From: Ostreococcus lucimarinus
Lineage: Eukaryota
Reading direction: 5' to 3' (one strand)
Assembly: GCA_000092065.1 (NCBI GenBank)
Contig: CP000590.1
DNA: 64,000 bases
Below are positions 2,956 through 39,706 of the stretch, in pieces; the first letter of the stretch is position 1; every line of letters begins with the position of its first letter. The translations under genes and the position numbers were made by a program. Below the pieces are notes generated by a model that was not told the origin of the DNA, did not search any database, and was given only the letters and a program-made list of their open reading frames with translations.

Positions 2956-5900
2956 CTAGTACATAGCGTCTCGCTGAGACACCTTGAGGAGTACGAACGC
3001 CAACGCGAGATAGCACGACATGATGGTGAACAAAACCGTGATGTCGTGGGAAAATACCTCGTGCGTCGAGCCAAAACTAAAGAACTTCAGTACCTCTTTG
3101 CCATCCACGGGGACTTTGATGGGACCTTCTTGCGGAGGCGTATCGGTCGGTTTAGAATCGATTAGCTTCGGCGTAAAGTAAAATGTTCCAGCGTCGAGGA
3201 ACTCGTTTATCAAGAGCGCCTCGAATGCGTAGTTGACGAAGGATAAATCCTCGAGCCATGTCACCGCGACCGATCCGCCCGAATGAGGATCTTGCTTGTT
3301 CAGTAAGAATCCGCCGCACAGAATGGATATCAACAAGGCAAGAAGACCAATGACATTTGCGGAGGCGTTACTCGGACTGACGATACCGACACACATGCAC
3401 AGCGCCGACGCGGCGACATTGGTCATGATCAAAATCAACGCACAGCACAGTGCATTCGTCAGGTTGGCGTGCAAACCTACCATCCAATAGGTAATGAATG
3501 CAAACAATAGGGGAGGAGTGACGCGTAAAATCACGACATCGAAGAGGACGACGGCTGTGAAGTACGCATTGGTGCCGTACACACCGCTCGCTCGCTCGCG
3601 TCTGAACAGAATTTGATCCTCTTTCCATATCGGCAAAGAGGAGAGCGACATGAGCGTCAGATACAGAATGATGAAGAATAAACTGCCCATCCTATTTTGT
3701 ATCCCGCCCGTGTCTCGTCCACTGTTCCAAAAAATCAAGCCGAGTGCGATTGACATGCCTGCCGTAGACGCAAAGTGCAACATCAACAAAAACGGATGAC
3801 GAAAGGTCACTCTTGCGAGCCGTTGCCAAAGCAAGCACACTTGCTTGACGTACGGACTAACGTATTTCGGTACGATCAACGGTGGTTCATCGGAATCTTC
3901 GTATCGAATCGTCAAGGTGTCCGCGATGAGCAACGCGCTTTCGGCGACCTCGCTCTCGGTAAACGCTTGCACCATGCGCTTTACGTCCGAGCGGGGACTC
4001 TTCAGCACGACGTCCAGCATGTAGTCCGCGATGTGCAAGTCCGCGGAAGGCAAGCTGACGAACGACATGGAGTTGAAGTGCGCTGAAGCGAGTGCAGACG
4101 GACCAGAGTAAACAACGCTCCCGTCGCCACTCAGTACCAGGACGCGATCAAGCAGTCGGAAAATGTCTGGTCGTGGCTGGTGAATGCTCAGCAATACCGT
4201 CGTGCCCATCGCGCCGAGACCGGACAGGATATCCACTACCTTGGCGGCGTTCGTACTGTCCAGCCCAGTCGTGGGCTCGTCCAGGAACATAATGCCAGGG
4301 CTCATCAAAAGCTCCGTGGCGATGCTCACACGGCGCTTTTCTCCACCGGACAAGCCGCGCTGGAACTGGTCACCAATGAACGAGTCAGCGAGCTTCTCAA
4401 TGCCGAGAATCTGCATCGTCGAGTCCACGCAACGACAAATATCATCTAAAGGCGTTTCGGCTGGAAGCCGAAGTTTGGCGTGAAACAACAAGTGCTCGTA
4501 TACAGTTGCGTTACCTGGCAAAACATCGTCTTGGGTAACGTATCCGCTCAGGCGACGAATCTGAGATGACACCATGGGTTGTCCGTTTACACGAATGTCG
4601 CCGCGAATAACATGCGTGGATGGTGCTCGCCCTGCAAGAATATCCAACAGCGTCGTTTTCCCAGCACCCGATGGTCCAAGCATGGCGAATAAATCAGCAT
4701 GTTGCTCATGACAGGTGATCGAACCATCGCGCGACGTTCCTATGGAGTTCACTGGGCCAGCCACGCCCGTGACGTTCTTCAACACCCGGCGCCCAGACTT
4801 CAACGTGCACACTACGTCAACCCATGACAAGATGTACGGCTCGCGCGCATTGCCACTCTCGCTTAAAAGTGAAAGTGATAGATCTTCTTCATCAAGAGCG
4901 CTCGAAAACAATCCATTGCTTTCGGTATTGTCTAATACGAGACTGTCGGTTGGTTGATGTGCAAATCGCTCGCGCGCATCGGCAAAGTCATCCGCAACAT
5001 CTACTATTTGGGACGTGCCACTATTATTGTAACCATCCACCCTTCCATCGAACGAATCTGAGTCTTGCGCGGAGGTTTTTAGGAAGACGTAACAACCAAA
5101 TGCAAAGAGGAAGCCTTCGGCGATCAGAAACGTGACATCCCAGGGCGCGAGATACGGATGAAACCCGAACGTGAAAAGCACTTTCTCGCCGGGGACTGGA
5201 ATTTGCTTTGGAAGCTTCGGTCCGCTGGTGCCACTGGCGTTGCTCCAGCTTTGAGTAAGCGTGAATGTCAATGGATTGTCGACAAACTCGTTGACGACGA
5301 GCGCCTCGTAGCCGTGACTTATGAAACTCAAGTCGGCGATCCAGCGTGCATACCACGGAATGTGGTCTTTGTTCAGCAAGAACCCCCCAAAAAGAATCGC
5401 GAGTAAAAAGCACAGCGAAGCAACCATGTTCGCCGCAGATACGTTCCGATTCGCGGCGCCGACCGCCATGCACAAACACGTAGCGACGATGTTCGTCAGG
5501 ATCAACACGAAGACAAATTTCAACAGATTCAACTGACCACCCTCATTCAAACCGATCATACCGTACGAGAAGAATCCGAAGAAAAACGGAGGCAGGACAC
5601 GCATTGGTAGCAGATCGAATAATAGCATGCTCACGAAATATGCATCTGCGCTGTATACTCGACTCGCTCTTTCGCTCTTGAAGAGTAAACGATCCTCCTT
5701 CCAAACCGGCAGCGAAGACAATGACATTAATGTCAAAAAGAGCAAGATGAAGAATAAACTGCCCATCCTATTTTGGATACCTCCTTGATTTGTACCACTA
5801 TGCCAGAAAATCCCACCGACACCGCAAGCGACGACGAAAGACGAAATGAAGTGCACGTAAATCAAAAATGGATGCCGGTACATTTGCCGGAGCAACCGTC

Positions 5901-8151
5901 CACAAAGAAGCTTGACTTGCGTTCTAAACGTCGCTGTGTGCTTCTTATCGACGTCGTCGATTGCATCGCCGTCAATAGAGAGCAAGCTTGGGGAGACGCT
6001 GAATCTTTGTGCGCACAGCTCCGTGTGCGTAACTTTATTTGTAGCCTCTATGTCGCTCTCGGCAAACGCTTGCACCATGCGCTTTACGTCCGAGCGGGGA
6101 CTCTTCAGCACGACGTCCAGCATGTAGTCCGCGATGTGCAAGTCCGCGGAAGGCAAGCTGACGAACGACATGGAGTTGAAGTGCGCTGAAGCGAGTGCAG
6201 ACGGACCAGAGTAAACAACGCTCCCGTCGCCACTCAGTACCAGGACGCGATCAAGCAGTCGGAAAATGTCTGGTCGTGGCTGGTGAATGCTCAGCAATAC
6301 CGTCGTGCCCATCGCGCCGAGACCGGACAGGATATCCACTACCTTGGCGGCGTTCGTACTGTCCAGCCCAGTCGTGGGCTCGTCCAGGAACATAATGCCA
6401 GGGCTCATCAAAAGCTCCGTGGCGATGCTCACACGGCGCTTTTCTCCACCGGACAAGCCGCGCTGGAACTGGTCACCAATGAACGAGTCAGCGAGCTTCT
6501 CGATGCCGAGAATCTGCATTGTCGCTCGAACACGCTTGCGAATTGTACTTTGCCTTGTTTCGGCTGGAAGCCGAAGTTTGGCGTGAAACAACAAGTGCTC
6601 GTATACAGTCGCCGTTCCGGGCAACACGTCCTCGTCGATGACATATCCGCTTACCGCTCGCATATCTTCCACTGACGCGACTTTACCATTCATGAATATT
6701 TCACCAGCGCTGTCGTATACGTTGGAAGACAGTCGCCCGGACAGTCGATCGAGCAAGGTGGTTTTTCCAGCGCCGGAAGGTCCCATGAGCGCGCACATGC
6801 CGCCACGAACGTCGTCCATCCTTCCAGCCATGCCTGAAACGTCATTCAAAATACGTTTTCTCATGCCCTTCACCTCTACATACAGCCCACGCCACGTCAA
6901 TATCGTCGATGGTCCATCACGCGGTTGCATTGTCGATTCGAATCGCCGTACAGCTTCGATAGCTCCTCCCACCACGTCTTCGGTGTCTGCGTTCATGTCA
7001 ACGTCGTGTTCAAAGTACCGAAGACCGGCCTCAACTTTGACGTACGCCCAAGCGGCGCTCACTAAAACTAAAACAATCAATACCATCACGGCTCTTGTGA
7101 TCGTGTCCCCGGTCCAATACACAGGAGGGTCGAAATGGATCGGGCACGACCCGTCGCTGTCGACCATCTCGTACACGCAGCTCCCAGTGTGACACGTCAG
7201 CGCAAGCGTCGGAATGACGCCACTTTGTGTCCAATAACACACATTCGACCCGTCTTCACGAGTGCTATTCACACCGCACCAAAATTTCATCCCCTTGTTG
7301 CCTGGCGTCGACAGCGGATTGCAGGGATGTTGCCAGTACTTTTGCCCGGGGGCGTCTGGAATGCTCCCGCACCCAAAAGCGTTCCGCCCCGGGCACGGCT
7401 CCACCCAAGTTGGCGGACACGACACCACGCCCGCGCTACAATCATACACTGCACACGTCTCCGTCGCAGGCAACGGGTCTATGCACGACGTGATCGTTAA
7501 CGAACACTGCGTAAAGTTCCCGTCCCACACCGCTGGAGCCGCGTACTTGTACTTATCCGGCACATCCAAATTTTGATCCTGTCGCGGCATCCCCGCGTAC
7601 TCCACGACTTCAATTTTGTATTTCGACCGTCCATTCGACACCGTGCCCGGTAATACTCGCATATCGATCCTCGTCTTCGGCTGGAACTTGCAAAACGAAT
7701 CTGTCTTCGCGTCGCCGCCGCATCCGCACGAAAACGTCTTCCCGCCCGCTCCTCCCTCTACGTCCCCGATCGGTCTCAGCTCCTCTTCCGTCGGCGTCCA
7801 GCACTTCGACGTACACGCGCTCGCGCTTCTCAGGACGCCATTCACCTTTCTCTGTCCACACACCGATCGCGTCTGACACGCGTCGCACGTCGTCCCGCGC
7901 CAACCGTCGCCGCAACCAAGATTCGGATCCCCTTTCACCGCGCACGACGCGCAGTTCTCGGGATGCGGCGACGACGTTGCGATCGGCATCGTGCTTCGAG
8001 CGCACGGTGGCGACGTCGTCGCGATGGCGTTCGCGCACTGCGCGTGGGAGTCGGCTATCGAGTTGGCTTTTGCGCAGATTACCAGCGTCAATGCGGCGAC
8101 GAACGCGACGCGCACGACGCGCCGGCGCGCATTTCCGAGCGATGCGCGCAT
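2956..8151 (-). CDS. Full-size ABCG/PDR-type ABC transporter (NBD-TMD-NBD-TMD), 1731 aa, preceded by an N-terminal signal peptide, a ~330-aa cysteine-rich ectodomain and one TM helix.
   Basis: There are two Walker A motifs (GPSGAGKTTLLD twice), ABC signature LSGGEKRRVSIA twice, and two ABC-2-type membrane domains. The N-terminus MRASLGNARRRVVRVAFVAALTLVICAKA is signal-peptide-like and is followed by >40 Cys. ATG verified at 8149-8151 (cat on +). Confidence 0.85.
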   Translation of the reverse strand: MRASLGNARRRVVRVAFVAALTLVICAKANSIADSHAQCANAIATTSPPCARSTMPIATSSPHPENCASCAVKGDPNLGCGDGWRGTTCDACQTRSVCGQRKVNGVLRSASACTSKCWTPTEEELRPIGDVEGGAGGKTFSCGCGGDAKTDSFCKFQPKTRIDMRVLPGTVSNGRSKYKIEVVEYAGMPRQDQNLDVPDKYKYAAPAVWDGNFTQCSLTITSCIDPLPATETCAVYDCSAGVVSCPPTWVEPCPGRNAFGCGSIPDAPGQKYWQHPCNPLSTPGNKGMKFWCGVNSTREDGSNVCYWTQSGVIPTLALTCHTGSCVYEMVDSDGSCPIHFDPPVYWTGDTITRAVMVLIVLVLVSAAWAYVKVEAGLRYFEHDVDMNADTEDVVGGAIEAVRRFESTMQPRDGPSTILTWRGLYVEVKGMRKRILNDVSGMAGRMDDVRGGMCALMGPSGAGKTTLLDRLSGRLSSNVYDSAGEIFMNGKVASVEDMRAVSGYVIDEDVLPGTATVYEHLLFHAKLRLPAETRQSTIRKRVRATMQILGIEKLADSFIGDQFQRGLSGGEKRRVSIATELLMSPGIMFLDEPTTGLDSTNAAKVVDILSGLGAMGTTVLLSIHQPRPDIFRLLDRVLVLSGDGSVVYSGPSALASAHFNSMSFVSLPSADLHIADYMLDVVLKSPRSDVKRMVQAFAESDIEATNKVTHTELCAQRFSVSPSLLSIDGDAIDDVDKKHTATFRTQVKLLCGRLLRQMYRHPFLIYVHFISSFVVACGVGGIFWHSGTNQGGIQNRMGSLFFILLFLTLMSLSSLPVWKEDRLLFKSERASRVYSADAYFVSMLLFDLLPMRVLPPFFFGFFSYGMIGLNEGGQLNLLKFVFVLILTNIVATCLCMAVGAANRNVSAANMVASLCFLLAILFGGFLLNKDHIPWYARWIADLSFISHGYEALVVNEFVDNPLTFTLTQSWSNASGTSGPKLPKQIPVPGEKVLFTFGFHPYLAPWDVTFLIAEGFLFAFGCYVFLKTSAQDSDSFDGRVDGYNNSGTSQIVDVADDFADARERFAHQPTDSLVLDNTESNGLFSSALDEEDLSLSLLSESGNAREPYILSWVDVVCTLKSGRRVLKNVTGVAGPVNSIGTSRDGSITCHEQHADLFAMLGPSGAGKTTLLDILAGRAPSTHVIRGDIRVNGQPMVSSQIRRLSGYVTQDDVLPGNATVYEHLLFHAKLRLPAETPLDDICRCVDSTMQILGIEKLADSFIGDQFQRGLSGGEKRRVSIATELLMSPGIMFLDEPTTGLDSTNAAKVVDILSGLGAMGTTVLLSIHQPRPDIFRLLDRVLVLSGDGSVVYSGPSALASAHFNSMSFVSLPSADLHIADYMLDVVLKSPRSDVKRMVQAFTESEVAESALLIADTLTIRYEDSDEPPLIVPKYVSPYVKQVCLLWQRLARVTFRHPFLLMLHFASTAGMSIALGLIFWNSGRDTGGIQNRMGSLFFIILYLTLMSLSSLPIWKEDQILFRRERASGVYGTNAYFTAVVLFDVVILRVTPPLLFAFITYWMVGLHANLTNALCCALILIMTNVAASALCMCVGIVSPSNASANVIGLLALLISILCGGFLLNKQDPHSGGSVAVTWLEDLSFVNYAFEALLINEFLDAGTFYFTPKLIDSKPTDTPPQEGPIKVPVDGKEVLKFFSFGSTHEVFSHDITVLFTIMSCYLALAFVLLKVSQRDAMY
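3951..4416. repeat. Copy A of an intragenic near-identical duplication (NBD2 of the ABCG gene), ~466 bp, 2 mismatches vs copy B. A second identical 52-bp block lies at 4455..4506.
   Basis: Direct alignment of the sequence to 6054..6519 at a constant offset of 2103 bp. Identical ORF-track peptides (4092..4292 equals 6195..6395). Confidence 0.9.
6054..6519. repeat. Copy B of the intragenic duplication (NBD1 of the ABCG gene). The second block is at 6558..6609.
   Basis: Same as copy A. The flanking NBD sequence is only protein-level similar, not nucleotide-identical. Confidence 0.9.
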
Positions 8152-8313: not shown

Positions 8314-9861
8314 TCAGTCGAAGCTGCACCCTTTGATGCAAGTTCTTATGGCTTTCGCTTTTTCTCTCTCCACGAGCACGACTTTCTCTTGAACCATGTA
8401 AGCCTTCGCTTGACCTCCGCCGTCGGGCATGACCCACATGGGTAACTGCACGGTCGGCACGTCTTGAAGTTTCGCATCTTCGGCTTTGACCCATTTGTAT
8501 TTCGGAGTGAAATCGGGCTTGCCTCCGATGTAGTGGCGAGTGCCGTGTTTGACGGTGGCGGCTTCGTACGAATCGACGACGCGGCGAAAGGTCTGGAGCG
8601 AACCGAAGTGGTGCTCGATGGCTGCGTTCAGCGCGGCGTCGGCGTAGGCGTACAGCGCGGCGTCGCGAGTGGTGACATTCTTGATGGTCACTTCGAGCGC
8701 TTCTTTGTCTACCTTATCCACGTTAGTGCCGGTGTTGGAGAAGACGTACCGCAAATCCCGCACGCCAGCTATTTTCCCTACGACGTGCAGAAATTCGTTG
8801 AAACGTTCGGTAGTCCCGACAACATCAAACTGCCCCACGAGCGCCTCGACCCGCGCCCACTTTTCATCGCTCACCGTGATGCAGTCTTTCGTCCACTTAT
8901 CGTTTTTCTCATACGTCGGCGCGCGCAAGTGATGGACGCACTCCTCCCACAACAGCTCGCGCGTTTGCATATCCTGTTTCGTCGCCGCCCACTCGTGCAA
9001 GCTACGCCCCCACACGTTCTTCGTTGACTCCCCCGCTTGTTCTTTCTTTATTTCTTCCTCCATGCCATCGTGCACGTAATATGCGTAGTAACTCGCGTAC
9101 TGATCAACGGGTTTCCGCACCAAGTAGGACGTCGTCACCGAACACGAATCCGCAAACTCTTCCTTCATCGCCAACACATCCTCAAACACCACATTCGCGA
9201 AGTTCTGCGCGTTCCAACTATTTGGATAGTGCCCTCTCACCTCCACGAGCGTTCTCGGTGGCACTGCACGCGTGCCATTCACGTACGCTCTCGCCGCGTC
9301 CGTCCACGCCGTCTTCAGCGCCTCCCACTCTTCCCGCGAAGCGCCGTACGGTATCGGATACTCCCACTCACCGAGCACCGTCTGCCTTTCGAACCAAAAC
9401 CGCACCGTCGTCCCACCCGTTTTACTGACGTGTCTAAATAAGTGCAGCGCGCACGGCTCATCGCTCTTCGCCGTCGCCGTCGCCGTCGTCGTCGCGTTCG
9501 AAGTCGTCGTCGCCGCCGTCGCGTCCCGCTCGCCGACGCTCGCCGACGCCGTCTCCAACTCTCGCGCCGTCTCCACCGATCCATCCGCGCTCGTCGCGCC
9601 GGCGTCATCGCGCGCGTTCGACGACTCGTGAATGCTCTGTTCGGCGACGTCGAGCGCGACCGGGGCGCGCCAGACGAGCTCTGGTTTGGCTACGAAGACG
9701 GTTGAAGTAATCTGCGTTCGCGAGCTCGGCTCGACCGAGTCGCCGTCATCGAACGATTGCCGCTCGGCGCGCCAGCGGTGCGCGGATACGACGACGAGAA
9801 CGGCCAGGACGAGCGCGGCCGCGGCGCGAAAGGCGGTGAACCATCGCGCGCTAGCGCTCAT
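8314..9861 (-). CDS. Type II membrane (Golgi-type) carbohydrate sulfotransferase-like protein (Sulfotransfer_2-like).
   Basis: N-terminal signal anchor (FRAAAALVLAVLVVVSA), a Ser/Thr/Ala-rich stem, and the HVSKTGGTT motif typical of the 5'-PAPS-binding loop of HS2ST/HS6ST/CHST-type sulfotransferases. Start trimmed to ATG at 9861 (MSASARW), which also removes an overlap with the next gene. Confidence 0.55.
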   Translation of the reverse strand: MSASARWFTAFRAAAALVLAVLVVVSAHRWRAERQSFDDGDSVEPSSRTQITSTVFVAKPELVWRAPVALDVAEQSIHESSNARDDAGATSADGSVETARELETASASVGERDATAATTTSNATTTATATAKSDEPCALHLFRHVSKTGGTTVRFWFERQTVLGEWEYPIPYGASREEWEALKTAWTDAARAYVNGTRAVPPRTLVEVRGHYPNSWNAQNFANVVFEDVLAMKEEFADSCSVTTSYLVRKPVDQYASYYAYYVHDGMEEEIKKEQAGESTKNVWGRSLHEWAATKQDMQTRELLWEECVHHLRAPTYEKNDKWTKDCITVSDEKWARVEALVGQFDVVGTTERFNEFLHVVGKIAGVRDLRYVFSNTGTNVDKVDKEALEVTIKNVTTRDAALYAYADAALNAAIEHHFGSLQTFRRVVDSYEAATVKHGTRHYIGGKPDFTPKYKWVKAEDAKLQDVPTVQLPMWVMPDGGGQAKAYMVQEKVVLVEREKAKAIRTCIKGCSFD

Positions 9862-9922
9862 GGCGCGTTGCGCTGTGAGGCGCTCGCGCGCGGCGACTAC
9901 GACTACGTTACACCGAGGAGCG

Positions 9923-12025
9923 CTAGTCGCTCCAATCGGAATCGTCAGAATCACCACCGAGGTGTGATCCAGACAGGTCTAATTGCGCGGCTATGGCGGA
10001 GTTGAGCTCGCCGAGACCTTTGTTCGGTGGCGGTGGCGGTGGCGGTTTCTTTGGCGGCGAAATCGAGCGCGGCGGCGGCGGCGGCTTGGGCGGTTTGCCG
10101 ACGCTCGGGGGTGGCGACGGAGGAATGTTACGCGAGGATGGCGGCGGTGGTGGCGTTGGCGCTGGAGGGGGTGTTGTACCGCGCGAGGGCGTCGGCGAAG
10201 TCTCCGAATCAGAGATCACCGAGGACGTCGCGGATGTGAAATCGCTCGCGCTCGCTTGTTTCTTGCGAAGAGAAACGCCAGCTTGGATCGACGCCATGAG
10301 CATAGCGTGCGGATCGTTTGGATTCGGTGGATTTGGTGGTGATGGTGCAGCGTTCTCGTCCGGTGGCGCGTGCCCGCCAGGCGGTGGTGGAGGGGGAGGA
10401 GGTGGTGGAGGGGGAGGCGGAGGGGGAGCGCTCGGCGCGCTCGGCGCGCTCGCCTGCATCGAAGCAGGAGGCATCGCCACAGGGGCAGAACTTCCAGGGC
10501 GTGGAGGCACAGGACGTCCTTCTGCTAAGGCCTGGCGCGCCGTTGCTTTCCATTGTTTGTAAATAGCTCTCTCCTCCTTCGCCGCGCGGCGTCTCGCGCG
10601 ATCCGCCCGACGCTCCTCACGCTCGATGCGCGCACGTTCCATCGTCGTCAGCGGTCTCGATGGTGTTTCCGCCGCGAGTTCAGCGGCTTGCCACAGGGCA
10701 GTGTTTTCGCCGTTCGCGTTTGACGCAGGAGCGTCGCGATTAGAGGCATCGTCATCACGAAGTAACATGCCCCACATCTCTGCTTCCATCTTCGCCAAGT
10801 CCGCGCTCGCCCTGGCGAACGCTCGCAAGCCGCGCGTGAGCGCATTTCCTGACAACCGGTGAAATCTAGGAAGCTCGTCGCGCATGCGCTCGACTATCAT
10901 GTCGTATCGCTCCTTTGCCTCTTTCATCAAAGCCTCGGCGGCGAGACAATCCGGATCCACCGTGGCGAGCGCTCTGCCTTTTTGGCGAACCACCTCGTCA
11001 TACCGATCGCACGTGATTTCGTAGTGTAAGAGCGTTTCTGCACGATCTTCAAACGTCTCTCGCACCGCACCGAGCATCCGCAAGCAATCCTTGAACTCCC
11101 GCTTGAGCGCTTTCATGTGTTCAACGACTTGCAGCTCGTGCGCGTCCTCGCCAGTCAACGATTCTGCGCAATCTGCAAATGCACCGAGCACGGTTCCCAA
11201 CGACACGCACTTACTTCTACGCGCCAAAGGTCGACCCCAACCTGACTCACACTCTCCCATCGCGCGCGCGCTCTTTCCTAGTTCCAACAGCCTCGTCGCG
11301 TTCACACGCTGTTCCAACTGTTTCATGTACTCTCTCGCGCTCTCTCGAAAGCCCACAATCTGGTCCTCAATCTTCTTCGTGTACTCAATCACTTGCAAAT
11401 ATTGCGGGTCTTCATCCTTGAGCACGCTCGATATCGTCCGCGTGCTGCCGAACATCTGCCCGAACCACGAGGGATTCGCCGCGCTCGGGCTCGACGTTGA
11501 AGCGCCGCCGCCGACCGCCGCCCCTAACATCCGCCGCGCCATCGCATCGACGAACGCCCCTCGATCATTCTCCGTGAGAAACATCAACAGCGCTGTGGAG
11601 TTATACAGCATCGGGTGCTCGCCACATCGCGTCAAAAACTGCACGAGATGTTGCCTTCGCTTTTCGCACGCGTCGCCATCCAACGCCGTCGTCCGCGCGC
11701 GTTCGCCCTCCAATTCCGGCGCCTTCGGCAGCGGCGGGATCACCGCTCCCGGATACGACTCCCGCAATCGCGTTCGCAGCGTGACAAAGTCTCCGTACCG
11801 CCGCTGGACGTCGAACGTGGCGTGTCCATCGCGTAATTCACTTCGGCATTGCAAAATGTATTCTCTCGCCGTCGCGCGCGTTTTGACGCTGAACGCCACG
11901 TGCGCGTCTCGCGGATCGCTCGCGACGAGCGTAGGTGCGGTGAGTTGTATCTTCACCGCCCCGGGTTGTATCTTCTTGTCCCGGCGCGACGACGACGCGC
12001 GCGTGGACGCGACGGATGGCGCCAT
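9923..12025 (-). CDS. Sorting nexin with a PX domain and a BAR-like helical region, followed by a long proline-rich tract and a C-terminal WH2-like actin-binding motif.
   Basis: PX hallmarks RRYGDFVTLRTRL and PPLPKAP. A helical ~250-aa region follows the PX domain. There are poly-Pro runs (PPPPPPPPPPPPPPPP) and LMASIQAGVSLRKK (WH2 consensus LxxxIxxGxxLKK). The ATG at 12025 (MAPSVAST) is the likely start, and the ORF extends to 12091. Confidence 0.7.
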   Translation of the reverse strand: MAPSVASTRASSSRRDKKIQPGAVKIQLTAPTLVASDPRDAHVAFSVKTRATAREYILQCRSELRDGHATFDVQRRYGDFVTLRTRLRESYPGAVIPPLPKAPELEGERARTTALDGDACEKRRQHLVQFLTRCGEHPMLYNSTALLMFLTENDRGAFVDAMARRMLGAAVGGGASTSSPSAANPSWFGQMFGSTRTISSVLKDEDPQYLQVIEYTKKIEDQIVGFRESAREYMKQLEQRVNATRLLELGKSARAMGECESGWGRPLARRSKCVSLGTVLGAFADCAESLTGEDAHELQVVEHMKALKREFKDCLRMLGAVRETFEDRAETLLHYEITCDRYDEVVRQKGRALATVDPDCLAAEALMKEAKERYDMIVERMRDELPRFHRLSGNALTRGLRAFARASADLAKMEAEMWGMLLRDDDASNRDAPASNANGENTALWQAAELAAETPSRPLTTMERARIEREERRADRARRRAAKEERAIYKQWKATARQALAEGRPVPPRPGSSAPVAMPPASMQASAPSAPSAPPPPPPPPPPPPPPPPGGHAPPDENAAPSPPNPPNPNDPHAMLMASIQAGVSLRKKQASASDFTSATSSVISDSETSPTPSRGTTPPPAPTPPPPPSSRNIPPSPPPSVGKPPKPPPPPRSISPPKKPPPPPPPNKGLGELNSAIAAQLDLSGSHLGGDSDDSDWSD

Positions 12026-12114
12026 CGCGCGCGCGAATTTGAAGTCGGTTGCGCGCGGGGGCGGGCGCGGGGGCGTCTCCGCGAAACGCATTGATTTGAT
12101 TGCAGCTACGAGGG

Positions 12115-14070
12115 CTAGTTCCTCTTATTACTCAAGATCCCGGCGAAAGTCTCGTTGGGGATGTCTACGTTGCCTATGCGGCGCATGCGGCGCTTGCCTT
12201 CTTTTTGCTTTTCTAATAATTTCTTCTTGCGTGAAATGTCGCCGCCGTAACACTTGGCGGTGACGTTTTTACGCATCGCGGAGATGGTTTCGCGAGCGAT
12301 TACCTTACTGCCTAGCGCGGCTTGCAGAGCGACTTCGTAGAGCTGGCGCGGGAGAGCTTCCTTTAAGCGCGCGACGAGGTCGCGGCCGTGGCGCTGGGCT
12401 TTGCTGCGATGGACGAGCGTAGCCAAGGCGTCGACGACTGAGCCGTTGACAAGAACGTCCATGCGTACGATGTCACTCTTCGCCATCCCAGCGTCGTCGT
12501 AATCGAACGTCGCGTACCCACTCGAGCGAGATTTCAGCTCATCCGCAAAGTCGGCGGCGACTTCACCGAGTGGAAGCCTGTAGCGGAGAATCACTCGCGA
12601 ATCATCTAAAAAGTTTTGCTCGAGTTGCTCGCCGCGACGGTCCATGCACAATTCGACAACCTTCCCGACCACGTGCGGCTGGCAAATTATCGTGGCCTCG
12701 ACGAGAGGTTCTTCGATTTCCGTGCCTTTGGACGGGAAGCCACCCGATGGGATCGCGAGCGGTGATGTGCAATCGATATACGCTTCGTCGTTGGCGTGCT
12801 TGATGCGATACGGCACCGTCGGCGCGGTCGCGATGATTTCCGCGCCGAATTCCTCTTGTAGACGCTGGTGGAAAACATCGGCGTGCAGCAGACCGAGGAA
12901 TCCACACCGAAACCCCGCGCCGAGCGCGGTGCTGTTCTCCGTTTGCGCCGTCACGCTGGCATCATTCAAAGTCAGCTTACTCACCGCCGCTTTGAGCTTT
13001 TCAAAATCATCGGAATTCACCGGGTATAGTCCTTGAAAAACCATCGGTTTCGCCGGTCTAATCCCTGCGAGCGGTTCTACGGGTTCATTTTTCATGTGAA
13101 GCGTATCGCCAACTTTCGACGACCGCACGTCGCGGACGTTTGTGATCATGTAGCCGACTTGTCCGGCGTACATCGCGTCGGTCTTCGTCCGCTCGGGCGT
13201 CATCATCCCGAGCTCCAATACCTCGAAATGCTGACCACTGGCGCACGACGACACTTTATCCCCTTTTCTGATGACCCCATCCGCGACTTGCACGATGTTC
13301 ACCGCGCCTCGATAATCGTCGTAGTGGCAATCGAGCAACAACACGCGCAACGGCCCGTTTGGATCGCCAGACGGATGCGGCACGTGCTTCACCACAGCGC
13401 TCAAAACCTTCTCCGCATTGTGACCCGTCTTCCCAGAAACCTCTAAGACGTCTTCGCGTTCAACTCCGAATGCACGCTCCATCTGTTTCGCCACTCGCTC
13501 CACATCCGCGCTCGTCATATCCACCTTGTTCGCCGCTGGCACGATGGCCAAATTCCTATCGAGTGCTAAATAAAACGTAGCGATCGTCTGAGCCTCCACC
13601 CCTTGCGTCGCATCGACGAGCATGACCGCGCCATCGCACGCGCTCAACGATCTCGACACCTCAAAGCTAAAATCTGCGTGTCCAGGCGTGTCGATTAGGT
13701 TCAACAAGTACGCCTGTCCGTCGCTCGGCTCGCGGTGCAGGATGCTCACCGCCTGCGCCTTCACCGTGATCCCTCGTCGCCGTTCCACCGGCAGTGTGTC
13801 GAGGACTTGTTTATTGCTTCCATCTCGCTTTATCGCTCCAGTCAGTTCGAGCAATCGATCGGCCAGCGTGCTTTTGCCGTGGTCCACGTGCGCGATGATG
13901 CTAAAGTTTCTCGTGCGCTCGCGCGGAATCGCCGCGAGTTCGTCCGCGGTCGGCGGTCTCTCCTCCTTCAGCGCGTCTCGCGCGGACGCGTAAGACGCAC
14001 TCGTCGACGCGAACGCGCGCGCAGCGCACGAACGGACGATTCGGTCGACGAGGACTCGCCTGAGGGCCAT
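12115..14070 (-). CDS. GUF1: Translation factor GUF1/LepA (EF4), organelle-targeted.
   Basis: G1 [17 protein letters not shown]3 DTPGHADF, G4 NKVDM, and a LepA C-terminal domain. There is an N-terminal presequence ([14 protein letters not shown]). ATG verified at 14068-14070. Confidence 0.9.
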
Positions 14071-14225
14071 GGTGCGACCGCCCGAGAGTGCAGCCGCGTC
14101 GGCGCGCGACGGGACCGCGAGCGGCGAGGGCGCGCGGCGATCACGACGATAGGATTGTGGACGCATGAATTAATAACAATGGTTGAAATTGAGACGCGCG
14201 ACGGTCTAATGTGACGCGCGATGGT

Positions 14226-39595: not shown

Positions 39596-39706
39596 GGGAT
39601 ATTAGCTCATCTGGTAGAGCGCTCGCTTTGCATACTCAGTGCGCGTCGACGCGAAGACGTCGACCATACGTGTGAGAGGTGCCGGGATCGACGCCTGGAT
39701 ATTCCA
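39596..39706 (+). tRNA. tRNA-Ala (anticodon UGC) with a ~38-nt intron after position 37. It has the G3:U70 alanine identity pair, an A73 discriminator and no encoded CCA.
   Basis: Manual fold: acceptor GGGATAT/ATATTCC (G3:U70), D arm GCTC-ATCTGGTA-GAGC, anticodon stem CTCGC/GTGAG with loop TTTGCAT, intron ..ACTCAGTGCGCGTCGACGCGAAGACGTCGACCATAC.. (internal palindrome), T arm CCGGG-ATCGACG-CCTGG, followed by a T5 run. Confidence 0.75.

What the first reader, a model, noticed from the sequence alone, without database searches (positions are those of the whole stretch)
2956..8151. ABCG transporter with an N-terminal signal peptide and ~330-aa cysteine-rich ectodomain ahead of NBD1
Full-size ABCG/PDR transporters normally begin with the cytosolic NBD. 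Here the first Met (8151) starts a cleavable-signal-like hydrophobic segment, followed by a >40-Cys domain (CDACQTRSVCGQRK.., CGCGGDAKTDSFCKF.., several CxxC/CxC clusters), one TM helix (~7100-7040), and only then NBD1. This predicts an extracellular or luminal Cys-rich domain tethered to an ABCG pump, an unusual topology that could couple ligand binding or adhesion to transport.
Basis: partly seen in the sequence, partly recalled or inferred. Interest (0 to 1): 0.55.

Follow-up and report, generated by a model that had tools for sequence, protein, structure and literature searches.

The report
Algal ABCG pump with outside-facing domain
This gene of an Ostreococcus-like marine picoalga encodes an ABCG membrane pump that carries, ahead of its first ATPase domain, a signal peptide, a disulfide-rich outward-facing domain predicted to contain a small beta-barrel, and an extra membrane anchor; the same layout recurs in green and brown-lineage algae, and I found no description of it.

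Summary
Window 2956-8151(-) is one uninterrupted 1731-aa ORF. It reads: signal-like N-terminus (aa 1-29), Cys-rich region (aa 30-348; 26 Cys, not >40), one strong TM helix (aa ~349-375), then a canonical full-size ABCG (NBD-TMD-NBD-TMD).

The N-terminal region is a conserved domain family. A profile search found 205 relatives. Every relative long enough to show what follows the TM helix is an ABCG transporter, half-size or full-size. Named sources are Ostreococcus tauri (XP_022839796.1, 1737 aa), Cymbomonas, a pedinophyte, Aureococcus, Chrysoparadoxa and Ectocarpus.

The architecture is well supported by comparison, with no transcript or protein evidence here. My preferred function, a tethered extracytosolic binding or acceptor module for a hydrophobic substrate, is inference.

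I rate it a new variant of a known kind, of moderate-to-good interest.

In passing: a 438-nt stretch is 100% identical between NBD1 and NBD2, and other family members show the same pattern. This suggests recurrent intragenic gene conversion.

The parts
2956..8151 (-). Complete CDS (1731 aa plus stop) of the ectodomain-bearing full-size ABCG transporter
   Evidence: Single ORF. Pfam ABC_tran x2 and ABC2_membrane x2. O. tauri ortholog of 1737 aa.
8065..8151 (-). Signal-peptide-like N-terminus, aa 1-29: basic n-region, h-region VAFVAALTLVICA, A-K-A before N30
   Evidence: Hydropathy peak at aa 15-33. Equivalent N-termini in O. tauri and at least 12 other family members. Cleavage is not tested.
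7747..8064 (-). N-terminal Cys-rich module of the ectodomain, aa 30-135, including C..C.C..GW.G..C..C.....C
   Evidence: Alignment A3. Cys conservation. AF2 model. No Pfam hit.
7177..7746 (-). Predicted 8-stranded antiparallel beta-barrel, aa ~136-325, with a Cys-rich insert at aa 245-287 between strands 5 and 6
7108..7176 (-). Juxtamembrane stalk, aa 326-348, including the conserved YWTGD motif of Mamiellales members
   Evidence: Lower pLDDT (~60) in AF2. 96% identical to O. tauri.
7027..7107 (-). Extra transmembrane helix 'TM0', aa ~349-375, ahead of NBD1
   Evidence: KD 2.41 at aa 355-373. AF2 helix at aa 349-380. A strongly hydrophobic segment follows the domain in all members that extend that far.
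6904..7026 (-). Cytosolic linker between TM0 and NBD1, aa 376-416
   Evidence: Half-versus-half alignment starts at aa 417. 76% identical to O. tauri.
6052..6903 (-). NBD1, aa ~417-700: Walker A 457, signature 566, Walker B 586, H-loop 621
5047..5964 (-). TMD1, ABC2_membrane type, aa ~730-1035
3952..4833 (-). NBD2, aa ~1107-1400: Walker A 1159, signature 1267, Walker B 1287, H-loop 1322
2959..3879 (-). TMD2, ABC2_membrane type, aa ~1425-1731
6064..6501 (-). 438-nt tract in NBD1 that is 100% identical to 3961-4398 in NBD2 (copy 1)
3961..4398 (-). 438-nt tract in NBD2 that is 100% identical to 6064-6501 in NBD1 (copy 2)

Best explanation
One gene encodes a full-size ABCG transporter with an added N-terminal extracytosolic module.

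Shown, or strongly supported by comparison:
- The order is: signal-peptide-like leader; a ~320-aa domain with 26 Cys (enough for 13 disulfides; pairing is inferred, not read from the model); a short stalk; a single membrane anchor (TM0); then cytosolic NBD1-TMD1-NBD2-TMD2.
- This places the Cys-rich domain outside the cell or in an organelle lumen, and the NBDs in the cytosol.
- The domain is a conserved, so far unnamed family found only on ABCG pumps of green algae and ochrophytes.
- It is predicted to hold a small N-terminal Cys module and an 8-stranded antiparallel beta-barrel of the general calycin kind (lipocalin, avidin, FABP).

Inferred:
- The barrel sits next to the extracellular exit of the pump.
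- It binds the hydrophobic substrate there, acting as a tethered acceptor or hand-off module.

My confidence is about 0.9 for the architecture and topology, and about 0.35 for the acceptor function.
For: Architecture:
- Uninterrupted ORF with a stop upstream of the first ATG.
- ABCG modules with canonical motifs in both NBDs. The closest solved relatives are Pdr5, CDR1 and ABCG2.

Conservation:
- 205 profile hits.
- Every hit that extends well beyond the TM helix carries ABC_tran and/or ABC2_membrane, and no other Pfam partner appears.
- A colinear ortholog lies on metagenome contig L001.
- Named sources: O. tauri XP_022839796.1, Cymbomonas, Pedinophyceae, Aureococcus, Chrysoparadoxa, Ectocarpus.
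- The N-domain is 61-71% identical to O. tauri with almost no gaps.

Extracytosolic location:
- 24 of 26 Cys are conserved in at least 90% of members.
- Family N-termini look like signal peptides.
- A hydrophobic anchor follows the domain in all members that reach that far.
- An N-x-S/T sequon at the N212 position occurs in 18 of 32 members.

Fold:
- AF2 with 32 sequences gave pLDDT 87.2 and pTM 0.82, with eight long strands.
Against: - No transcript, 5'-end or proteomic evidence was available. Signal-peptide cleavage and topology rest on sequence features only.
- I had no model coordinates, so barrel closure, a cavity and the disulfide pairing could not be checked.
- Nothing identifies the substrate or the membrane where the protein resides.
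- The Bathycoccus-like members, as predicted, lack an obvious hydrophobic N-terminus. Their start codons may be mispredicted.
Confidence: 0.55

Rival explanations
1. The ectodomain is a sensor or regulatory (or adhesion) module. An external ligand or surface contact is sensed, and the signal passes through TM0 to modulate ATPase or transport activity.
For: Strict co-occurrence with ABCG pumps. Barrel folds of this kind bind ligands. The stalk and TM0 are highly conserved between Ostreococcus species, at 96% and 74%.
Against: No adhesion-type repeats or known receptor domains were found. A single TM helix followed by a ~40-aa flexible linker is a poor allosteric conduit (inference). Nothing separates this reading from an acceptor role.
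Confidence: 0.15
2. The ectodomain captures a substrate for import. It would work like the substrate-binding domains fused to some bacterial ABC importers (OpuA, GlnPQ; from my own knowledge), delivering a scarce hydrophobic nutrient from seawater to the pump.
For: Tethered binding domains on ABC importers are an established principle (own knowledge). The barrel fold class includes avidin-like vitamin binders and siderocalin. All identified sources are algae, most of them marine.
Against: Characterised ABCGs are overwhelmingly exporters (own knowledge). The transporter core shows nothing unusual.
Confidence: 0.1
3. The ectodomain is structural, with no ligand binding. It would serve folding, quality control, trafficking, oligomerisation, or anchoring to the cell covering.
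For: A disulfide-rich domain with a possibly glycosylated sequon is typical of stable surface modules. The fold match is generic.
Against: It occurs exclusively on ABCG pumps, across what I take (own knowledge of these algae) to be very different cell coverings, from naked cells to walled brown algae. That argues for a transport-linked role.
Confidence: 0.15
4. Annotation artefact. The Cys-rich region and the ABCG would be separate products, through a separate upstream gene or an internal start at M386 or M408, and only appear fused because the frame stays open.
For: Gene spacing in this genome is very tight: 162 nt to the upstream gene. No transcript data were available.
Against: Frame continuity is kept over at least 10 divergent lineages, including half-size forms. 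The topology is coherent: signal peptide, ectodomain, TM, cytosolic NBD. No stop or start signal is conserved at the junction, and the linker is 76% identical to O. tauri.
Confidence: 0.05

Closest known systems
ABCG2 / half-size 'WBC' ABCG transporters and fungal PDR pumps (Pdr5, CDR1)
   Same: Reverse NBD-then-TMD order, ABC2_membrane-type TMD, canonical Walker A, signature, Walker B and H-loop. These are the best PDB sequence matches, E ~1e-76 to 1e-80.
   Different: Known ABCGs start with the cytosolic NBD (own knowledge). This one has a signal peptide, a ~320-aa ectodomain and an extra TM helix in front. Unlike PDR pumps, both ATP sites are canonical and the two halves are 59% identical to each other. 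Half-size relatives carry the same ectodomain. This points to an independent internal duplication.
'V2-type' Mamiellophyceae-specific full-size ABCGs (Cho et al. 2020, PMC8359288)
   Same: A lineage-specific full-size ABCG clade in the same algal class. It may include this gene.
   Different: That paper never uses the terms 'extracellular domain' or 'signal peptide'. I could not verify that V2 equals this family. This family also extends to ochrophytes.
NPC1 N-terminal domain (functional analogue, from my own knowledge)
   Same: Signal peptide, then a Cys-rich luminal ligand-binding domain, then a TM helix at the N-terminus of a lipid transporter. It serves as a hand-off station.
   Different: No sequence relation: neither Pfam NPC1_N nor any other family was hit. 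NPC1-NTD is, from my own knowledge, not a meander barrel. The transporter class also differs (RND-like versus ABC).
ABCA1 / ABCA4 extracellular domains (functional analogue, from my own knowledge)
   Same: Large extracytosolic domains on a eukaryotic ABC lipid exporter, thought to receive or channel lipid.
   Different: ABCA ECDs are inserted between TM1-TM2 and TM7-TM8, not tethered N-terminally. They are much larger. No sequence similarity was seen beyond the NBDs.
Calycin-type barrels (lipocalins, avidins, FABPs) and other 8-stranded barrels (GID4, Cap15, Tp0751)
   Different: 3-13% identity and no sequence-level signal. There is a heavy disulfide load and a 43-aa Cys-rich insert between strands 5 and 6. 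No C-terminal helix was evident in the DSSP string.

Membership tests
ABC transporter subfamily G (ABCG) | NBD N-terminal to TMD (reverse topology) with an ABC2_membrane-type TMD | tested here: met
   Pfam ABC_tran (2 stretches) and ABC2_membrane (2 stretches, best-scoring at aa 744-956) in the order NBD-TMD-NBD-TMD.
ABC transporter subfamily G (ABCG) | Catalytic motifs: Walker A, ABC signature, Walker B, H-loop | tested here: met
   GPSGAGKT at 457 and 1159, LSGGE at 566 and 1267, IMFLDEP at 586 and 1287, SIHQP at 621 and 1322.
ABC transporter subfamily G (ABCG) | Closest characterised relatives are ABCG proteins | tested here: met
   PDB phmmer: Pdr5 4.5e-80, CDR1 5.6e-80, ABCG2 1e-76, AtABCG25 2e-62, ABCG1/5/8 ~1e-50. 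ABCA and ABCB match only through the NBD.
ABC transporter subfamily G (ABCG) | ATP-dependent transport activity | not testable with these tools
   Needs biochemistry.
PDR-type full-size ABCG (plant/fungal) | Full-size NBD-TMD-NBD-TMD in one chain | tested here: met
PDR-type full-size ABCG (plant/fungal) | Asymmetric ATP sites with a degenerate N-terminal NBD (own knowledge of PDR pumps) | tested here: not met
   Both NBDs carry identical canonical motifs.
PDR-type full-size ABCG (plant/fungal) | PDR-specific accessory regions (Pfam ABC_trans_N, PDR_assoc) | tested here: not met
   Neither appears among the 25 best Pfam hits, which run down to E 0.012. The halves are 59% identical to each other, with half-size orthologs, which suggests an independent duplication.
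Lipocalin/calycin superfamily | 8-stranded antiparallel up-and-down beta-barrel | tested here: inconclusive
Lipocalin/calycin superfamily | Sequence-conserved regions (G-x-W in strand A) and a C-terminal helix packed on the barrel (own knowledge) | tested here: not met
   No Pfam lipocalin hit at E ≤ 10. No PDB profile hit at E ≤ 10. No helix lies between strand 8 and the TM helix.
Lipocalin/calycin superfamily | Internal ligand pocket | not testable with these tools
Needs structure inspection or binding assays.
   hmmscan of 9 family members at E ≤ 10 gave only a DSL hit at E 0.42 in one member, and nothing for the window protein. The C..C.C..GW.G..C..C spacing at aa 67-98 is EGF-like to the eye only.
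NPC1 N-terminal domain | Match to Pfam NPC1_N | tested here: not met
   No hit.
PKD/Ig-like domain | Significant single-domain match | tested here: not met
   The PKD-repeat protein P0160 scored only through 13 stretches of -0.7 to 8.2 bits each. No PKD Pfam hit in family members.

The most novel reading that the evidence does not exclude
These proteins would define a new class of eukaryotic ABC exporter. In it, a calycin-like binding barrel is built into the pump as an N-terminal, membrane-tethered extracellular acceptor. That would be the first ABCG known to carry an extracytosolic domain. It would let wall-less marine picoalgae and ochrophytes hand hydrophobic products such as sterols, hydrocarbons, pigments or infochemicals from the membrane to the outside without a soluble carrier.
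Probability: 0.3. Interest if true: 0.75.

Novelty: new variant of a known kind. Interest (0 to 1): 0.6.

Why it matters
How ABCG exporters release very hydrophobic substrates is usually explained by external acceptors such as HDL, bile micelles or cuticle. That explanation comes from my own knowledge of the field.

A pump with a covalently tethered candidate acceptor domain would be a compact natural system for studying this hand-off, structurally and genetically. O. tauri is transformable, again from my own knowledge.

The work also defines an unannotated domain family of about 200 sequences that is restricted to ecologically dominant marine phototrophs. In addition, it flags unusual concerted evolution between the two NBDs of one gene.

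Tried and rejected
- **Pfam on the N-domain** (window plus 8 relatives, E ≤ 10): nothing usable. EGF, TNFR, GCC2_GCC3 and NPC1_N are not supported.
- **Profile against PDB sequences:** no hit at E ≤ 10.
- **First AF2 run with 9 sequences:** pLDDT 54.5, unusable. It was replaced by a 32-sequence run.
- **PKD-like idea from hit P0160:** rejected. The hit is a sum of stretches scoring -0.7 to 8.2 bits each.
- **Foldseek against PDB and BFVD:** no hit at E ≤ 0.001. The afdb50 library was not available.
- **Exact look-up of the window protein:** not on record, so the source genome could not be named. I call it an Ostreococcus that is not O. tauri on two grounds: 69% N-domain identity to O. tauri, and near-identity to metagenome proteins P0036 and P0180.
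- **Second word-indexed homolog search with alignment A3:** only 10 hits, nothing new.
- **Six literature searches:** no description of the ectodomain.
- **Rfam scan of the window:** one tRNA only, irrelevant to the finding.

Full report
**1. Observation**

- Window 2956-8151 (minus strand) is a single 1731-aa ORF that starts at the ATG at 8151.
- An in-frame stop lies 37 codons upstream of that ATG. The upstream gene ends at 8314, so only 162 nt separate the two genes.
- Pfam finds two ABC_tran and two ABC2_membrane domains in the order NBD-TMD-NBD-TMD. It finds nothing in the first ~420 aa.
- Hydropathy shows a signal-like segment at aa 15-33 and a strong TM segment at aa 355-373, which corresponds to nt ~7033-7089.
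- The quoted Cys motifs are present.
- The cysteine count was overstated. There are 27 Cys in aa 1-360, of which 26 are in the mature part. The figure 46 applies to the whole protein.
- The enrichment is still highly non-random: 7.5% against 1.4%, P ~3e-12.

**2. The transporter core**

- The best solved relatives of the first half are Pdr5, CDR1, ABCG2, AtABCG25 and ABCG1/5/8.
- Both NBDs carry canonical Walker A, signature, Walker B and H-loop motifs.
- The two halves are 59% identical to each other.
- No PDR-specific accessory Pfam domain appears.
- Relatives exist in which the same N-terminal domain precedes a single NBD-TMD unit: P0021, P0022 and P0035 at ~1190-1260 aa, and P0043 and P0055 at ~920-950 aa.
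- I therefore read this protein as an internally duplicated half-size-type ABCG, not a plant or fungal PDR-type protein.

**3. The N-terminal region is a conserved domain that occurs only on ABCG pumps**

- A word-indexed search with aa 30-382 found 9 clusters, none with a Pfam annotation in this region.
- A profile of these, run with HMMER over 1.84 billion representatives, found 205 proteins at E ≤ 1e-3 and 98 at E ≤ 1e-10.
- All 19 longer members that I scanned, apart from one rejected spurious hit, carry ABC_tran and/or ABC2_membrane and no other Pfam domain. The short, mostly truncated members show no domain at all.
- A colinear ortholog (ectodomain, NBD1, TMD1, NBD2, TMD2) lies on a 438-kb metagenome contig next to a pheophorbide-a-oxygenase-like gene, as expected for a green alga.
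- Source names place members in these organisms:
  - Ostreococcus tauri: XP_022839796.1 / CEF99370.1, 1737 aa, annotated only as 'ABC transporter, conserved site'; a second strain as 'pleiotropic drug resistance protein'.
  - Cymbomonas tetramitiformis.
  - Pedinophyceae sp. YPF-701.
  - Aureococcus anophagefferens.
  - Chrysoparadoxa australica.
  - Several Ectocarpus species.
- Identity of the window protein to the O. tauri ortholog, by region:

| Region | Identity |
|---|---|
| Ectodomain | 61-71% |
| Stalk | 96% |
| TM0 | 74% |
| TM0-NBD1 linker | 76% |
| NBDs and TMDs | 82-90% |

- The alignment across these regions has essentially no gaps. The N-terminal region is therefore coding and under constraint, and it lies in the same reading frame as the pump in many lineages.
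- The window organism is most likely an Ostreococcus species other than O. tauri. This is inference. Supporting points are the very compact, intron-poor gene arrangement and near-identical metagenome proteins.

**4. Topology**

- Family members with complete N-termini begin with typical signal peptides: a basic n-region, a 10-15-residue hydrophobic core and small residues before the mature part.
- In the window protein, A27-K-A29|N30 fits the -3/-1 rule. This is my reading of the sequence, not a predictor result.
- Every member that continues past the domain has a strongly hydrophobic segment there.
- 24 of the 26 ectodomain Cys are conserved in at least 90% of aligned members. The other two (C117, C336) are shared by the closest relatives only.
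- An N-x-S/T sequon at the N212 position is present in 18 of 32 members.
- Whether the leader is cleaved or acts as a signal anchor, the domain is extracytosolic and the following NBD is cytosolic. That is the only arrangement compatible with an ABCG.

**5. What the domain looks like**

- No Pfam family (E ≤ 10) and no PDB sequence (profile, E ≤ 10) matches it.
- AlphaFold2 with 9 sequences failed, at pLDDT 54.5. With a 32-sequence alignment (A3) it gave pLDDT 87.2 and pTM 0.82.
- The predicted layout is:
  - a small helix-and-hairpin Cys module, aa ~30-135;
  - eight long antiparallel strands at aa 138-144, 161-168, 178-185, 207-222, 232-244, 288-293, 303-309 and 313-322;
  - a Cys-rich insert between strands 5 and 6;
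  - a lower-confidence stalk;
  - the TM helix, aa 349-380.
- Foldseek gives at best E = 2.4e-3, to Rv0813. The viral structure library gives nothing.
- This is fold-level resemblance, not evidence of homology. I could not inspect the coordinates for a pocket.

**6. Mechanism**

- Shown or strongly supported: the architecture, and the exclusive association of the domain with ABCG pumps.
- Inferred, from three considerations:
  - ABCG substrates are typically hydrophobic (own knowledge).
  - This barrel class typically binds small hydrophobic ligands.
  - The domain is tethered about 25 residues above the membrane, beside the pump.
- From these I favour a tethered acceptor or hand-off module for the exported substrate. 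Analogues in principle are the NPC1 N-terminal domain and the ABCA extracellular domains. My confidence is about 0.35.
- Rivals are a sensor or regulatory role, a capture domain for import, a purely structural or trafficking role, and an annotation artefact. The last is unlikely given the conservation.

**7. Novelty**

- The proteins are in public databases. A Mamiellophyceae-specific full-size ABCG clade ('V2-type') has been noted (PMC8359288).
- Neither that paper nor six full-text searches turned up any description of an N-terminal ectodomain on ABCG pumps. The library is incomplete, so absence is not proof.
- I classify the finding as a new variant of a known kind: an ABCG with a new accessory domain and an extra TM helix.

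**8. Side finding: identical tract in the two NBDs**

- Within the gene, CDS nt 1651-2088 and 3754-4191 are 100% identical over 438 nt. These are window 6064-6501 and 3961-4398. The rest of the two halves is only ~45-60% identical at the nucleotide level.
- The O. tauri ortholog, in two strains, and two distant family members also have about 150-225 aa of perfect NBD1 = NBD2 identity.
- The window tract is nevertheless only ~90-93% identical to the O. tauri tract.
- This pattern fits recurrent intragenic gene conversion in each lineage.
- Two metagenome proteins of 1030 and 1031 aa lack one 701-aa repeat unit; for P0036 the junction was mapped to window aa 1-696 joined to 1398-1731. They are either assembly collapses across the repeat or real deletion alleles.

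Noticed in passing
window 6064-6501 and 3961-4398 (also 6557-6609 / 4454-4506): A 438-nt tract is 100% identical between NBD1 and NBD2 of the same gene, while the flanks are ~45-60% identical. O. tauri and two distant family members show the same perfect NBD1 = NBD2 stretch at protein level, yet the tract differs between species. This suggests recurrent intragenic gene conversion.
   Followed up: partly
proteins P0036 (1030 aa) and P0180 (1031 aa), compared with window 2956-8151: These metagenome gene products are almost the window protein with one 701-aa repeat unit removed; P0036 maps as aa 1-696 joined to 1398-1731. They are either assembly collapses over the 438-nt repeat or natural half-size deletion alleles.
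   Followed up: partly
window 8314-9957 (-): The upstream neighbour is a 547-aa mechanical ORF with an N-terminal hydrophobic segment and no Pfam hit. The motif HVSKTGGTT reminds me of a sulfotransferase PAPS-binding loop. That is memory only and was not tested.
   Followed up: no
window 9923-12091 (-) and 12115-14166 (-): A PX plus Vps5-like (sorting-nexin) protein with a long proline-rich tail, and a LepA/GUF1-type GTPase, lie with almost no intergenic space. The mechanical ORFs 8314-9957 and 9923-12091 overlap by 35 nt. The 722-aa protein is found exactly in two Logan SRA assemblies, SRR23274481 and SRR1179203.
   Followed up: no
window 39596-39706 (+): Rfam reports a single tRNA match spanning 111 nt for a 71-position model, so it probably contains an intron.
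   Followed up: no
L001 7935-14170: The GC-rich (Micromonas-like?) ortholog is colinear, but its segments lie in different frames: 3, 1, 2, 2, 1. The cause is either short introns or indel errors in a polished long-read assembly. The prokaryote-style gene calls P0005 and P0006 contain frameshifted junk.
   Followed up: partly
protein P0009 (391 aa, ENA contig of 18 kb): Chimeric gene call. The end of the ectodomain, TM0 and the start of NBD1 (77-79% identical to the window) run into an acetyl-CoA-synthetase-like C-terminus (PF13193). This is probably an assembly or gene-call artefact.
   Followed up: no
protein P0160 (2703 aa, PKD-repeat protein): It reached E 4e-7 against the ectodomain profile only by adding 13 stretches of -0.7 to 8.2 bits each (pattern DP.PAT...). 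I judge it spurious.
   Followed up: yes
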